45,984 nt of DNA from Clostridiaceae bacterium UBA5444 (GTDB lineage Bacteria > Bacillota > Clostridia > Clostridiales > Oxobacteraceae), in NCBI GenBank assembly GCA_002426575.1, contig DIRE01000063.1:32401-78384 (forward strand), read 5' to 3'. The translations under genes and the position numbers were made by a program. Below the pieces are notes generated by a model. It saw nothing but the letters and a program-made list of their open reading frames with translations. It had not been told where the DNA came from and ran no database searches. Within the stretch, counting starts at the first letter, position 1. Every line of letters starts with the position of its first letter. Positions 14,287-18,012 of the stretch are shown here, piece after piece.

Positions 14287-17200
14287 TTACTTTTTATTAA
14301 CATTTAAATTGCTTAAGTCCATACCATATCCATAATTTGCATGCATGTTGTAAAATGCCTTCGTATTACCGTCTTTATCGCTAAGTACGATAAAACCAGG
14401 TTTCCATTCTCCATAAGGCAAATCCATTGCTGAGAATGAGTCAGCTATTTTAGCTCTGTATAAGCCGCCTGCAGTACGGGTAAGATTTATTTCGTTATTA
14501 AAATGAATAGTTTTAACGCTGCCGTCGCCATATATTCTGTCCATAGTAGTAACATATGTCATTTTAGCAGTATCAGCGAGATTTCCTTCTGTATCTACAT
14601 ATATATAGCCATCTTGTATATATGTGTTTTTTATTTTAATTGAATTTAGTACATCACTATCATATATAGGTGCTGCATCATTCTTTGTACCCTTCATTAT
14701 ATGAATCTTAGCAACGCTTCTATCCTTATTCTCTGCTGTAACAAAAATCTTTAAGCCATAGCTGGCAAGATTAAGGCCACACTCATGTCCAGAAGGACTA
14801 TCATATTTTAAGCTGTCATCAAATACGGGTATCATATTTGTGCTTGGATCTTTAGTTACATAAGCATTGCCCCAAACCTTTGTAAATGCCGAGCTATCCT
14901 TTAGGCTAAATGCTGCATCATGCATCTGGTAGGTCACATATTCAAGCCAAGGAAGGGTGTGTTCATCCTTATACGATATAGGTTCCTGGTCTGCATCTAC
15001 AATACCAACAGAGCAATATCCAGGATGATCTACTACGGCCTGATCAGGTCTGCCTTTCGAATCTCTTGGATCTCCAAATTTTTCATTTACATACCAGATT
15101 ATAAGACCTGGGTCGTACTTAAGCTCCTCCCAGAATGAGGTAACATCGTAAAGCCCCTTGTCCACCAATCCATTGTCATAATTTCTCCACTCAAGCATAT
15201 AATAATGCTTATAAGTTCTCTCCCCATTTACTGATACAGTGAAGCCATCAAGGTCAAACTTAGGATTCCCTTCAGCATCATCGAAGAATATCACTTTCTC
15301 AATTGGTGTAGCTTCTATAGAATCAAGCTTCGAATCTTCCTCAGTATCATCAGGAAGTACATCTTTATCACTTGGTGTAACTTCTATAGGGTCAGGCTTT
15401 GAATCTACTTCAGCATTATCAGAAAGTACCTCTTGTTCATTGGGCACAATTTCTACAGGTTCAGGCTTTGAATCCCCTTCAGCATCGCCTGGGAGTACTT
15501 TTGCAGTAACTTTTATATTGTCTATAAATATGCCGGTATTCGGTGTATTTGTATCACTCCAGAAGTAGAACTTTAAGCTAATACTTCTTCCGGCATATTG
15601 GCTTAAATCAAATTCTGCCTTAATCCACTCATTGGATTTTCCTGTTATGCCATACCCTGGGTTCCTGTCTGTAAGATCATTCGGAGTATCATCATTTGGA
15701 TTATCTGTAGTAGTTATGTTTCCTGATATAGATACAAAGCCGCCTTCCTTAGAATCCTTTACCTGTACGGATGCATAGTCCCAATCCTGCTCAATATCGT
15801 ACCATGTATCAAATTCTAGCTTTATCTCGCTTCCTTTAGGAATATTTAAAAGATCTATACTGGTTATAGCTGATTCGTTTGCTGAATTTTTTATGCCGCT
15901 GTAATAAGCATTACTCTTATAATCGATAATTTGGTCGGTTCTATCAGGAAGATCAATCCTCAAAGCGCTGTTGTTTTTTCCATTTAAAGTTGCCTGATCT
16001 AAAATTACATCTACACCATTTTCATTAATATCAGCTAAATTTAATGTCTCTTTTTTCTGCCAATTTGTTTTAACTCCCTTTTTATCAAATATCTCCTGCA
16101 ACAAGTCTTTGCAAAAAGCACCATAGCTATTTGGCTTAGATCCTCTTAATGAACCAGTATAACTTCCGCCCATTAATGACCAGTATTCTACAGGTACTTG
16201 GCCACGACCGTATAGATCTGGTAACCCTAAATAATGGCCATATTCATGAGCAAATAAGTCAACAGGAATGTCCTGCTCAATTGCCAAGAAATTATCAGCC
16301 TTTAATTTATTACCTTTTGTATCCGTAACCTCATGCTTTGGATTATTATCATACCATGTTAACGCGGATCTAAACGGCCAGATTGCATCTTCGCCAAGTG
16401 AGCCGCCGCCGAATTCTTCTCCCAGCCCTGGATGAATTACAACAATACAATCAATTTCACCATCTGGCTCAAAATAATTGCCGTTATTATTATAATCATA
16501 AGGATCCTCTACATCATAATCTGCCAGATTAATATTTGGATCCTTTGCAACAGCATCAAGAGCCTCTCTGACAAGGTCGCAGGTTCTATTCTGCTCCTTC
16601 CAGTCTTCATTGCTCCCATAATATGCTGCTTCGCGACTTGCTGGATACCATCCATGCACTCCGCCTTTTACCTCAACAGTCCCCCGGGATTCTTCTTTAA
16701 TAAATTTATTTATTGATATATAACTTCCCTCATCGCTGCCTTTATAAAAGTCTTCGCCGAAGAACATATTATTATATAATTCAGGTGTACAGTCTTTACC
16801 TTCAAAATTATTTATTCTCCAATCCTCTTTGTCATCTATGTCTTCATGGTTGTAATCTGTAAAGTCCATAGCTATAACAAGAGGTTTCACGGTAACCTGT
16901 ACTTCTCCAGGCTCATTTGGAACAAAGTCTAATGAATGATCATGGTATTCAGGTGGTGTATAACTACCTGAACCGCCGCCAATTGGTATTTGTGTTTGCT
17001 GGTCAGCTATAGCCTTAATAACCTTCTCAAGATCAGTAACAATATTGTCTGGAACAACCGCTGTTCCGCCTAAAACAACAATACTGCTATTTACTGACAT
17101 GCTATCTTTAAGAAACTCTTTTGTATCATACGGGATATTGGAATTTACTAAAACAATTGGTGAAGAAGTAACTGCTGCTAAAACAGAACCTGCCAGTGCG

Positions 17201-18012
17201 TCAGCATAACCTTTACCTGTAGCAATATATACTTTATTAAAACTCAAATCTGAAAAAGCCTTCATAACAGCAACATTTGTACTATACCTATCATTTCCAG
17301 ACAGAACTTTTGAGTTGGGTATAAGATTTTTAACTGAATCACTTATAACACCATTCCCGCCAATTATAAATGTATTTTTGATTTCTTTTGAAGAAAGGAA
17401 TGAAGTAACACCATCTGGTAGGTTATCCTTCTTAGTCAATAGTATAGGCATTCCTCTATAAGCAGCGATTGAAGATATTGACAATGCATCGGCAAAAGAT
17501 TCATCTGAACCATTTGCAAGCACAGCTTCAGTGATTGTCCCAAGTTTTTCTTCTACTTGTTCTGCAATCTTTAATGAGGTAGCATATCTGTCGTTTCCGA
17601 ATATACGATTAGTTGATATTCCTTTGGATTTGATTAAATCTTCTATTGTCTGAGGTATAACGCCTGTCCCACCTATTATAAACGCATTTTTTGTGCCAAG
17701 GGATGAAAGATAATTTAATACATCAGAATTTTGGCCTTTAGGATTTATTAATATAATTGGTGCATTATACGCTTTTGCCAGCGGGGCAGCACACAATGCA
17801 TCAGCCGAGGACTCACCTGTTACCAATACAACAGTATCGGCTGACTTCCATCCAGCCTTAACAATGTTTAAGGATGTCTCATATCTGTTATCCCCGCCAT
17901 ACCTAATTGATATATTTTTTGCTGCATTAGTTGATGCAAAAGCTGCTACATTAAATGTTGATAAGCAAAAAACGAGAACAATCGAGATTAAATTAATACA
18001 CTTTTTTCTCAC
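14287..18012 (-). CDS. Secreted M6-family (immune inhibitor A / InhA-like) zinc metalloprotease with three N-terminal CWB2 cell-wall-binding repeats, an acidic repeat linker and a C-terminal beta-rich domain
   Basis: GTG start with RBS aaaggagag. Signal peptide. CWB2 repeats (GDNRYETSLNIVKAGW; GNDRYATSLKIAEQV; GNDRYSTNVAVMKAF). Zinc motif LFAHEYGHYLGLPDLYG (HExxH, M6-like) at nt ~16235-16252. 1241 aa. Confidence 0.8.
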   Translation of the reverse strand: MRKKCINLISIVLVFCLSTFNVAAFASTNAAKNISIRYGGDNRYETSLNIVKAGWKSADTVVLVTGESSADALCAAPLAKAYNAPIILINPKGQNSDVLNYLSSLGTKNAFIIGGTGVIPQTIEDLIKSKGISTNRIFGNDRYATSLKIAEQVEEKLGTITEAVLANGSDESFADALSISSIAAYRGMPILLTKKDNLPDGVTSFLSSKEIKNTFIIGGNGVISDSVKNLIPNSKVLSGNDRYSTNVAVMKAFSDLSFNKVYIATGKGYADALAGSVLAAVTSSPIVLVNSNIPYDTKEFLKDSMSVNSSIVVLGGTAVVPDNIVTDLEKVIKAIADQQTQIPIGGGSGSYTPPEYHDHSLDFVPNEPGEVQVTVKPLVIAMDFTDYNHEDIDDKEDWRINNFEGKDCTPELYNNMFFGEDFYKGSDEGSYISINKFIKEESRGTVEVKGGVHGWYPASREAAYYGSNEDWKEQNRTCDLVREALDAVAKDPNINLADYDVEDPYDYNNNGNYFEPDGEIDCIVVIHPGLGEEFGGGSLGEDAIWPFRSALTWYDNNPKHEVTDTKGNKLKADNFLAIEQDIPVDLFAHEYGHYLGLPDLYGRGQVPVEYWSLMGGSYTGSLRGSKPNSYGAFCKDLLQEIFDKKGVKTNWQKKETLNLADINENGVDVILDQATLNGKNNSALRIDLPDRTDQIIDYKSNAYYSGIKNSANESAITSIDLLNIPKGSEIKLEFDTWYDIEQDWDYASVQVKDSKEGGFVSISGNITTTDNPNDDTPNDLTDRNPGYGITGKSNEWIKAEFDLSQYAGRSISLKFYFWSDTNTPNTGIFIDNIKVTAKVLPGDAEGDSKPEPVEIVPNEQEVLSDNAEVDSKPDPIEVTPSDKDVLPDDTEEDSKLDSIEATPIEKVIFFDDAEGNPKFDLDGFTVSVNGERTYKHYYMLEWRNYDNGLVDKGLYDVTSFWEELKYDPGLIIWYVNEKFGDPRDSKGRPDQAVVDHPGYCSVGIVDADQEPISYKDEHTLPWLEYVTYQMHDAAFSLKDSSAFTKVWGNAYVTKDPSTNMIPVFDDSLKYDSPSGHECGLNLASYGLKIFVTAENKDRSVAKIHIMKGTKNDAAPIYDSDVLNSIKIKNTYIQDGYIYVDTEGNLADTAKMTYVTTMDRIYGDGSVKTIHFNNEINLTRTAGGLYRAKIADSFSAMDLPYGEWKPGFIVLSDKDGNTKAFYNMHANYGYGMDLSNLNVNKK
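15267..15495. repeat. Three tandem repeats of roughly 66 bp encoding an acidic linker in the M6 protease (DAEGDSKPEPVEIVPNEQEVLS / DNAEVDSKPDPIEVTPSDKDVLP / DDTEEDSKLDSIEATPIEK)
   Basis: Repeat seen at both the protein and nucleotide level (aggctttgaatc...acaggttc units). Confidence 0.75.

What the first reader, a model, noticed from the sequence alone, without database searches (positions are those of the whole stretch)
14287..18012. M6/InhA-like metalloprotease with N-terminal CWB2 anchor and acidic tandem-repeat linker, adjacent to the collagenase
The protein reads: signal peptide, three CWB2 repeats, an HEYGHYLGLPDLYG zinc site resembling immune inhibitor A (M6), three 22-aa acidic repeats (D/E/S/K/P-rich), then an uncharacterised ~320-aa C-terminal beta-rich domain. 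InhA-type enzymes degrade host antimicrobial peptides and matrix. The pairing with a surface collagenase in one island suggests a coordinated surface protease module.
Basis: partly seen in the sequence, partly recalled or inferred. Interest (0 to 1): 0.6.

Follow-up and report, generated by a model that had tools for sequence, protein, structure and literature searches.

The report
Cell-wall-anchored InhA-type zinc protease
This gene encodes an intact InhA-family (M6) zinc protease fused to a clostridial cell-wall anchor, a combination not found elsewhere in the databases searched but built entirely from known parts, so it is a modest variant rather than a new kind of system.

Summary
It has a signal peptide, three CWB2 repeats, and a Peptidase_M6 catalytic domain with an intact HEYGHYLGLPD zinc site and Met-turn.

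Three corrections:
- The "uncharacterised ~320-aa C-terminus" is the InhA VEG domain (about 906-1105) plus a 136-aa Ig-like beta-sandwich that is conserved in a clostridial InhA-like clade.
- The acidic repeat has a 23-aa (69-nt) period. It is a tandem amplification of the MAM-to-VEG junction itself, giving a disordered loop inside the InhA fold at a site where relatives also carry insertions. It is not an inter-domain linker.

The Bacillus-type pro-peptide is absent. No other protein combining CWB2 and M6 appeared in a 1.84-billion-representative HMMER search.

The collagenase adjacency is real: same strand, same anchor type, no canonical terminator between the genes. It is not conserved, though: 0 of 47 other InhA-like loci have an M9 gene nearby.

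Most likely function is surface-tethered, broad-specificity proteolysis for nutrition. I rate it a new variant of a known kind, with modest interest.

The parts
18020..18028 (-). Ribosome-binding site AAAGGAGAG, 7 nt before the GTG start
   Evidence: Read directly from the sequence
17932..18012 (-). Signal peptide, residues 1-27 (MRKK, hydrophobic core, AFA|S)
   Evidence: Sequence inspection; no predictor was run
17023..17931 (-). Three CWB2 cell-wall-binding repeats, residues 28-330, each with a PILL-type motif (PIIL85, PILL189, PIVL285)
   Evidence: Pfam PF04122 2e-60 with 3 stretches; PDB Cwp6 1.6e-32 and Cwp8 3.8e-25; motifs
16894..17022 (-). Linker between the anchor and the protease, residues 331-373. 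It occupies the position of the short N-terminal segment of clade relatives; no Bacillus-type pro-peptide is present
   Evidence: Residues 340-358 have pLDDT below 50; pro-peptide HMM scores -1.4 bits on the query against 68-163 bits on controls
16093..16893 (-). Peptidase_M6 catalytic domain, residues 374-640
   Evidence: Pfam PF05547 4e-62; TIGR03296 2.1e-46; aligned to 4yu5
16216..16248 (-). Zinc site HEYGHYLGLPD (H589, E590, H593, D599). The Met-turn WSLM is at residues 611-614, just downstream
   Evidence: Motif positions; H, E, H and D are invariant, and the Met at least 90% conserved, across 56 family members
15502..16014 (-). InhA-like MAM domain, residues 667-837
   Evidence: Pfam PF20773 3.9e-33; aligned to 4yu5; confident beta structure in the model
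15256..15522 (-). Four in-register 69-nt units (u0 is 60 nt), residues 831-919. This is a tandem amplification of the MAM-to-VEG junction; the net insertion is about 66 aa, acidic and Pro-rich (22 D/E, 5 K/R, 9 P), and predicted disordered
   Evidence: TRF period 69, score 196; unit alignment; z = 10.5; pLDDT below 50 for residues 847-898; relatives have a junction gap of 2 aa
14698..15297 (-). InhA-like VEG domain (segment after the MAM domain), residues 906-1105
   Evidence: Pfam PF20774 9.5e-25; aligned to 4yu5 residues 557-748
14290..14697 (-). C-terminal extension, residues 1106-1241: an Ig-like beta-sandwich specific to the clostridial InhA-like clade and absent from Bacillus InhA
18336..18400 (-). 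Intrinsic terminator ending the upstream glycosidase operon (hairpin of -31.5 kcal/mol followed by U9). It implies the M6 gene has its own promoter in 18029-18335
   Evidence: I1
14140..14225 (-). Very stable 86-nt hairpin in the M6-collagenase spacer, with no U tract; role unknown
   Evidence: Free energy -34.1 kcal/mol, z = -6.6; unique in the window; no Rfam hit
8918..14053 (-). Neighbouring M9 collagenase (probable ATG start at 14053) with 3 PKD, PPC, Big_2 and three C-terminal CWB2 repeats
   Evidence: Pfam; start context
8772..8808 (-). Terminator-like hairpin downstream of the collagenase gene

Best explanation
The gene encodes a Sec-exported InhA-type (MEROPS M6) zinc endopeptidase that stays non-covalently attached to the cell wall.

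Shown:
- An intact catalytic machinery: H589-E590-x-x-H593, D599 and the Met-turn.
- The full InhA body (catalytic, MAM and VEG domains), which superposes on the InhA2 crystal structure.
- Three CWB2 repeats with one PILL motif each.
- No Bacillus-type pro-peptide.
- A 66-aa acidic, disordered loop created by tandem amplification of the 69-nt MAM-to-VEG junction.
- An extra Ig-like C-terminal domain shared with a clostridial clade.

Inferred:
- After signal-peptide cleavage the CWB2 trefoil binds an anionic secondary wall polymer, as it does in C. difficile Cwp proteins.
- A flexible stretch of about 30-40 residues lets the protease body reach out from the wall.
- The enzyme cuts extracellular proteins and peptides with broad specificity next to the cell. 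The products are then captured by the cell, plausibly together with the neighbouring wall-anchored collagenase (collagen to gelatin fragments to peptides).
- The acidic loop is most likely a tolerated flexible excursion at a permissive site, not an essential functional element.
For: Family and active site. Structure: AF2 model with pLDDT 86 and pTM 0.84, matching 4yu6 at E = 7e-56 with target-normalised TM 0.74-0.77.

Anchor. The requirement for all three CWB2 domains, and their binding to the PSII polymer, comes from PMC5842191.

No pro-peptide: the PDB alignment starts at chain residue 114. The pro-region HMM gives 68-163 bits on controls and at most 5.7 bits on the query and its clade.

Repeat origin and disorder.

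Nutritional role: two of three close relatives (P0125, P0129) sit next to Opp-type peptide ABC transporters. An M9 collagenase with the same anchor type lies 233 nt downstream on the same strand, with no canonical terminator between the genes.

Wall tethering recurs in the clade through other modules: SLH, LysM and choline-binding repeats.
Against: There are no expression, localisation or activity data.

The M6-M9 pairing is not conserved. A very stable hairpin lies between the two genes and may separate their transcripts.

Without a pro-peptide it is unclear how the enzyme is kept from damaging the cell's own surface proteins. The Opp adjacency rests on only two loci.
Confidence: 0.7

Rival explanations
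1. Host-defence evasion factor. Like Bacillus thuringiensis/cereus InhA1, the surface-displayed enzyme would degrade antimicrobial peptides and host matrix proteins to protect the cell.
For: It belongs to the same family and fold as InhA. InhA1 degrades cecropin and attacin and also matrix proteins (PMC5974196). Placing the enzyme at the cell surface would suit interception of cationic peptides, and a collagenase lies next door.
Against: Identity to Bacillus-type InhAs is only about 35-44%, and the pro-peptide and C-terminus differ. The closest relatives come from environmental clostridia such as Oceanirhabdus, Hathewaya, Haloimpatiens and Dethiothermospora. The flanking genes are carbohydrate uptake and glycine cleavage, with no toxin or virulence genes. 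Substrate preference cannot be read from the sequence.
Confidence: 0.12
2. Surface-proteome maturation or shedding protease. The enzyme would process or trim the cell's own S-layer and cell-wall proteins, as C. difficile Cwp84 cleaves SlpA and as B. anthracis/cereus InhA1 remodels the secretome and cleaves NprA.
For: The architecture is analogous to Cwp84, a protease joined to three CWB2 repeats (PMC5842191). InhA1 cleaves NprA (PMC5974196). The Hathewaya limosa relative P0130 lies inside a secA2 / SLAP-accessory / polysaccharide locus. Co-localisation with the neighbouring CWB2 collagenase would allow one enzyme to process the other.
Against: In this genome the gene is not in an S-layer or secA2 locus. 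Most clade members have no wall anchor at all, so the ancestral role is probably that of a soluble protease. There is no direct evidence.
Confidence: 0.12
3. Transient anchor. The CWB2 module would act as a temporary tether or inhibitory pro-region that is cut off in the disordered 331-358 linker, releasing a soluble protease of about 100 kDa like other clade members.
For: The linker is predicted disordered. The family normally uses N-terminal processing for activation (Arolas et al. 2016, PMID 26745529; my own knowledge, paper not readable here). The CWB2 proteins SlpA and CwpV are cleaved after export.
Against: CWB2 modules are stable anchors for many enzymes carrying N-terminal cassettes of the same layout. 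No recognisable cleavage motif is present. Relatives tethered by N-terminal SLH domains have the same layout.
Confidence: 0.15

Closest known systems
Bacillus cereus/anthracis immune inhibitor A (InhA1/InhA2; MEROPS M6; PDB 4yu5/4yu6)
   Same: Catalytic, MAM and VEG domains in the same order. The HExxHxxGxPD zinc site and the Met-turn are conserved. Sequence E = 9.6e-70; the predicted structure matches at E = 7e-56 with TM 0.74-0.77.
   Different: The ~100-residue pro-peptide is missing. The query has an N-terminal triple CWB2 anchor, a 66-aa acidic insertion at the MAM-to-VEG junction and a 136-aa Ig-like C-terminal domain. Identity to Bacillus-type InhAs is about 35-44% in BLAST and 28% in the structural alignment to 4yu6.
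Clostridial InhA-like clade (for example P0121, P0124, Oceanirhabdus seepicola P0125, Hathewaya limosa P0130)
   Same: 40-53% identity over the protease body. Short N-terminus without a pro-peptide. C-terminal Ig-like extension carrying the GN(A/T)KA(F/I)YN motif. Insertions at the same MAM-to-VEG site in at least 17 members.
   Different: None carries CWB2. Their junction inserts are unrelated in sequence (E/K-rich stretches, Big_5 or PPC-like domains, TTGD repeats), whereas here the insert is made of copies of the junction itself.
C. difficile Cwp84 (CWB2-anchored cysteine protease) and the wider Cwp family
   Same: A secreted protease joined to three CWB2 repeats that bind an anionic wall polymer. 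Cwp84 degrades matrix proteins and processes surface proteins (PMC5842191). The C-extension's best structural match is a domain of Cwp6.
   Different: Cwp84 has a C1A cysteine protease domain and a propeptide. Here the passenger is a propeptide-less M6 metallopeptidase.
SLH-, LysM- or choline-binding-tethered InhA-like proteases (P0154, P0158, P0165, P0167, P0136, P0178, P0219, P0168)
   Same: The same clade of M6 protease fused to a wall-binding module. The SLH versions have the module at the N-terminus, as here.
   Different: A different anchor chemistry: SLH binds pyruvylated polymer, LysM binds peptidoglycan, and choline-binding repeats bind teichoic acid choline, whereas CWB2 binds a PSII-type polymer.

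Membership tests
MEROPS M6 / immune inhibitor A peptidases | Match to the family catalytic-domain models above the curated thresholds | tested here: met
   PF05547 scores 210.6 bits (cut-off 22) and TIGR03296 scores 159.1 bits (cut-off 110.8)
MEROPS M6 / immune inhibitor A peptidases | Zinc-binding motif HExxHxxGxxD with the catalytic Glu, plus a downstream Met-turn | tested here: met
   H589, E590, H593, D599 and WSLM611-614. H, E, H and D are invariant and the Met at least 90% conserved in a 56-sequence alignment
MEROPS M6 / immune inhibitor A peptidases | InhA accessory domains (MAM and VEG) following the catalytic domain | tested here: met
   PF20773 3.9e-33 and PF20774 9.5e-25. The whole-body model matches 4yu6 with TM 0.74-0.77
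MEROPS M6 / immune inhibitor A peptidases | N-terminal pro-peptide of about 100 residues that keeps the Bacillus enzymes latent (Arolas et al. 2016; my own knowledge) | tested here: not met
   The alignment to 4yu5 starts at chain residue 114. The pro-region HMM gives -1.4 bits on the query against 68-163 bits on Bacillus controls. This feature is missing from the whole clostridial clade, so it defines the Bacillus subgroup rather than family M6
MEROPS M6 / immune inhibitor A peptidases | Zinc-dependent endopeptidase activity | not testable with these tools
   Needs an enzyme assay
CWB2 cell-wall proteins (Cwp-like) | N-terminal signal peptide | tested here: met
   MRKK, then a hydrophobic core, then AFA|S, judged by inspection; no predictor was available
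CWB2 cell-wall proteins (Cwp-like) | Exactly three tandem PF04122 repeats (all three are needed for binding; PMC5842191) | tested here: met
   3 stretches, 201.7 bits. Aligns to the CWB2 trefoils of Cwp6 and Cwp8
CWB2 cell-wall proteins (Cwp-like) | A PILL-type trimerisation motif in each repeat | tested here: met
   PIIL85, PILL189 and PIVL285
CWB2 cell-wall proteins (Cwp-like) | The host makes a PSII-like anionic wall polymer, and the protein is extractable from the wall | not testable with these tools
   No polymer-synthesis locus in the window; the genome was not identified
Two-gene surface protease operon (M6 + M9) | Conserved gene pairing in related genomes | tested here: not met
   0 of 47 non-self InhA-like loci have an M9 gene within +/-10 kb. 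There is none beside P0125, P0129 or P0130
Two-gene surface protease operon (M6 + M9) | Co-transcription | tested here: inconclusive
   Same strand, 233-nt spacer, no canonical terminator, but a hairpin of -34.1 kcal/mol without a U tract sits in the spacer

The most novel reading that the evidence does not exclude
The M6 protease and the M9 collagenase would form a lineage-specific, co-transcribed, wall-anchored 'collagen degradome'. It lies within a ~21.7-kb block that separates gcvT/gcvPA/gcvPB from lpd/lplA. Collagen, which is one-third glycine, would be cut at the cell surface and its glycine fed directly into the flanking glycine-cleavage system. The junction-derived acidic loop would be a newly born functional element, for example a flexible hinge that frees the MAM domain for substrate capture, rather than neutral filler.
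Probability: 0.1. Interest if true: 0.5.

Novelty: new variant of a known kind. Interest (0 to 1): 0.3.

Why it matters
The protein shows that the CWB2 anchoring cassette, best known from C. difficile, has also captured an InhA-type metalloprotease. This extends the list of enzymes displayed on clostridial surfaces.

Three side-results may be more useful than the gene itself:
- A clostridial InhA-like clade lacks the Bacillus pro-peptide, so it must control latency in some other way.
- That clade carries a conserved Ig-like C-terminal domain that Pfam does not model.
- The MAM-to-VEG junction is a recurrent insertion site. Here the DNA shows the disordered acidic segment arising from tandem copies of formerly structured junction sequence.

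None of this opens a long-standing question. It is annotation-level and protein-evolution-level knowledge.

Tried and rejected
- Naming the organism. The genome-contig scan returned only relatives of 42% identity or less. Cluster look-ups gave protein names but no organism.
- Profile search with the C-extension alignment A2 in the 5.8-billion-protein set. 1820 candidates, none significant, so it says nothing about where else the domain occurs.
- Foldseek of the C-extension against afdb50. The library was not available.
- Rfam scans of the 468-nt leader and the inter-protease spacer (E<=1) and of the whole window (gathering threshold). No riboswitch or other known RNA was found.
- Recent exchange of the CWB2 cassette between the two neighbouring proteases. 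Rejected: they are 35% identical, less than the 45-51% seen to CWB2 modules of other species.
- A functional link between the upstream glycosidases and the proteases. The 587-aa enzyme resembles GH36/GH31 alpha-galactosidases only weakly, the 466-aa enzyme has no PDB relative, and a strong terminator separates them from the M6 gene. Dropped.
- The inter-gene hairpin as a repeated mobile element. Rejected: it is unique in the window.
- Reading the InhA2 structure paper (Arolas et al. 2016). It is not held, so its details are cited from my own knowledge.
- Repeat-number polymorphism. The other cluster members differ only by a 4-aa deletion at residues 393-396 plus an I392M change in P0243, and by first-residue differences (P0240 reads V for the initiator; P0242 is a fragment). 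None differs in the repeat.
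Full report
OBSERVATION

An AAAGGAGAG ribosome-binding site lies 7 nt upstream. The identical protein occurs on 12 contigs from at least three independent samples with the same neighbours, so the fusion is not an assembly chimera.

DOMAIN ANATOMY

Pfam gives four families:
- CW_binding_2, three stretches, 2e-60.
- Peptidase_M6, residues 374-640, 4e-62.
- InhA-like_MAM, residues 667-848, 3.9e-33.
- InhA-like_VEG, residues 933-1103, 9.5e-25.

NCBIfam's M6 domain model also passes its cut-off. The closest solved structure is the InhA2 zymogen (4yu5/4yu6, E = 9.6e-70). 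It aligns in two pieces, query 374-837 and query 897-1105.

The zinc site HEYGHYLGLPD (H589, E590, H593, D599) and the Met-turn WSLM (611-614) are intact. They fall on invariant or nearly invariant columns of a 56-member alignment.

An AlphaFold2 model of residues 340-1241 is confident (pLDDT 86, pTM 0.84). It matches 4yu6 at E = 7e-56 with target-normalised TM 0.74-0.77.

The CWB2 part aligns to the Cwp6 and Cwp8 trefoils and has one PILL-type motif per repeat. According to PMC5842191, all three CWB2 domains are needed to bind the anionic wall polymer PSII in C. difficile.

1. A MAM domain sits between the catalytic domain and the repeat.
2. The "uncharacterised ~320-aa C-terminal domain" is really two things. 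One is the known VEG domain (about 906-1105). The other is a 136-aa extension (1106-1241) with no Pfam match even at E<=1.
3. That extension is absent from Bacillus-type InhAs, which end 2-3 residues after the VEG domain. It is present in 35 members of a clostridial clade, with a conserved GN(A/T)KA(F/I)YN...G.DL motif.

THE ACIDIC REPEAT

The repeat has a period of 69 nt (23 aa), not 22 aa. There are four units in register:
- u0, 15463-15522, shortened by 9 nt.
- u1, 15394-15462.
- u2, 15325-15393.
- u3, 15256-15324.

Pairwise nt identity among u1-u3 is 62-74%. Other in-frame positions of the same gene give 28.5 +/- 3.8%, so z = 10.5.

Unit u0 contains the last MAM strand (DNIKVTA). Unit u3 contains the conserved re-entry segment (VIFFDDAEGNPKF). 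Relatives have a single 23-aa junction of the same pattern, for example DDIKVTADNKALLNDNAEGDTKF in P0130. The array is therefore a tandem amplification of the domain junction itself, and the inner copies have since drifted towards D/E/P/S.

The net insertion relative to InhA is about 66 aa, with 22 acidic residues, 5 basic residues and 9 prolines. It is predicted disordered: pLDDT is below 50 for residues 847-898. The flanking segments are only 2 residues apart in most relatives. I therefore infer that the insert forms a loop excursion inside the InhA body, not a spacer between the protease and a further domain.

The same site carries unrelated insertions in at least 17 clade members: E/K-rich stretches, Big_5 or PPC-like domains, and TTGD repeats. 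It is a permissive insertion point. The sampled copies of this gene show no difference in repeat number.

THE N-TERMINUS

Bacillus-type InhAs have 120-200 residues before the catalytic domain. The clostridial clade has only about 15-50.

A profile of the Bacillus pro-region scores 68-163 bits on held-out Bacillus-type proteins, but at most 5.7 bits on the query and 22 clade members. From my own knowledge of Arolas et al. 2016 (PMID 26745529, not readable here), InhA2 latency depends on the N-terminal segment of its pro-peptide occupying the cleft. That device is absent here. In this protein the CWB2 cassette plus a partly disordered 43-residue linker precedes the catalytic domain. How latency is achieved, if it is at all, remains open.

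HOW UNUSUAL IS THE FUSION?

- In a word-indexed search of 5.8 billion proteins, the only full-length match was the protein's own cluster.
- The closest protease bodies (P0121 and others, 40-53% identical) lack CWB2.
- An exhaustive phmmer search of 1.84 billion 50%-identity representatives with residues 42-1241 returned hits to either the M6 part or the CWB2 part.
- Among all 352 fetched proteins, 183 match CWB2 and 170 match M6. Only the query's own cluster matches both.

CWB2 cassettes are, however, fused to dozens of other enzyme types, including subtilisins, trypsin-like proteases, glycosidases and amidases. Other members of this M6 clade are tethered by SLH, LysM or choline-binding repeats. 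The combination is new, but the principle is not.

CONTEXT AND THE "MODULE" CLAIM

The downstream gene (8918-14053) is an M9 collagenase with PKD, PPC and Big_2 domains and three C-terminal CWB2 repeats. A strong terminator ends the upstream glycosidase operon, and another follows the collagenase. The 233-nt spacer between the two protease genes has no canonical terminator. It does hold a hairpin of -34.1 kcal/mol without a U tract. Co-transcription is therefore possible but unproven.

The pairing is not conserved. None of 47 other InhA-like loci has an M9 or CWB2 gene within +/-10 kb, and three close relatives have none either. The two CWB2 modules are only 35% identical.

Two of the three relatives lie beside Opp-type peptide transporters. 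The third lies in a secA2/S-layer-type locus. The window's other genes are carbohydrate uptake, glycine cleavage and housekeeping functions, with no virulence genes. No known RNA element was found.

MECHANISM AND VERDICT

Most likely (0.7), this is an active, wall-tethered, broad-specificity M6 endopeptidase. It would digest extracellular protein next to the cell, probably for nutrition and possibly alongside the neighbouring collagenase. The family assignment, intact active site, anchor module, missing pro-peptide, and repeat origin and disorder are shown. Anchoring to a PSII-like polymer, substrate range, physiological role and co-expression are inferred.

The rivals are not mutually exclusive:
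- Antimicrobial-peptide or host-matrix degradation, as in Bacillus InhA1 (PMC5974196).
- Cwp84-like or InhA1-like processing of the cell's own surface proteins.
- Release of a soluble enzyme after cleavage in the linker.

I class the gene as a new variant of a known kind, of modest interest (0.3).

Noticed in passing
window 8918-14053 (-): The neighbouring M9 collagenase is about 1711 aa. It has near-identical internal PKD-PPC modules, a Big_2 domain and three C-terminal CWB2 repeats. I did not check whether CWB2-anchored collagenases are common.
   Followed up: partly
window 2114-4742 and 26486-30801: The glycine-cleavage genes gcvT, gcvPA and gcvPB are separated from lpd and lplA by about 21.7 kb. 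That stretch holds an AraC regulator, two sugar ABC systems, two glycosidases and both proteases. It may be an insertion into a formerly contiguous gcv cluster. GC content there is only slightly raised (0.36-0.40 against 0.32-0.34).
   Followed up: no
window 14140-14225 (-): An 86-nt extended hairpin lies between the M6 and collagenase genes (-34.1 kcal/mol, z = -6.6). It has no U tract on the minus strand but a T7 run on the plus strand. It is unique in the window, has no Rfam match, and its role is unknown.
   Followed up: partly
window 31425-31528: A 21-nt tandem repeat of 4.9 copies. It appears to encode heptad repeats (…MQGDI/MQSDI…) in a small minus-strand ORF starting near 31549, between gcvT and an ABC exporter pair.
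   Followed up: no
L060 8001-10844 (Hathewaya limosa JAUSWN010000028.1): The InhA-like relative P0130 sits inside a secA2 / SLAP-accessory / polysaccharide-synthesis locus, although it has no wall-binding module itself.
   Followed up: no
Relatives P0124, P0131, P0135, P0142, P0144, P0146, P0150, P0151, P0157, P0163, P0170, P0171, P0174, P0176, P0177, P0180, P0196: In clostridial and Paenibacillus InhA-like proteases, the MAM-to-VEG junction is a hotspot for insertions of 14-273 aa. These are acidic stretches, Big_5 or PPC-like domains, or TTGD repeats.
   Followed up: partly
window 36796-38922 and 35329-35919 (-): A 708-aa ORF and a 196-aa ORF with no Pfam match flank an ABC ATPase gene (35924-36799).
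   Followed up: no
window 39872-44818 (-): An RtcB RNA ligase, a Band_7/SPFH protein and a WYL-domain protein are clustered together. This may be an RNA-repair or stress module.
   Followed up: no
window 20331-21731 (-): A 466-aa putative six-hairpin glycosidase. It has only a weak Bac_rhamnosid6H hit (6.5e-06) and no relative in the PDB by sequence.
   Followed up: partly
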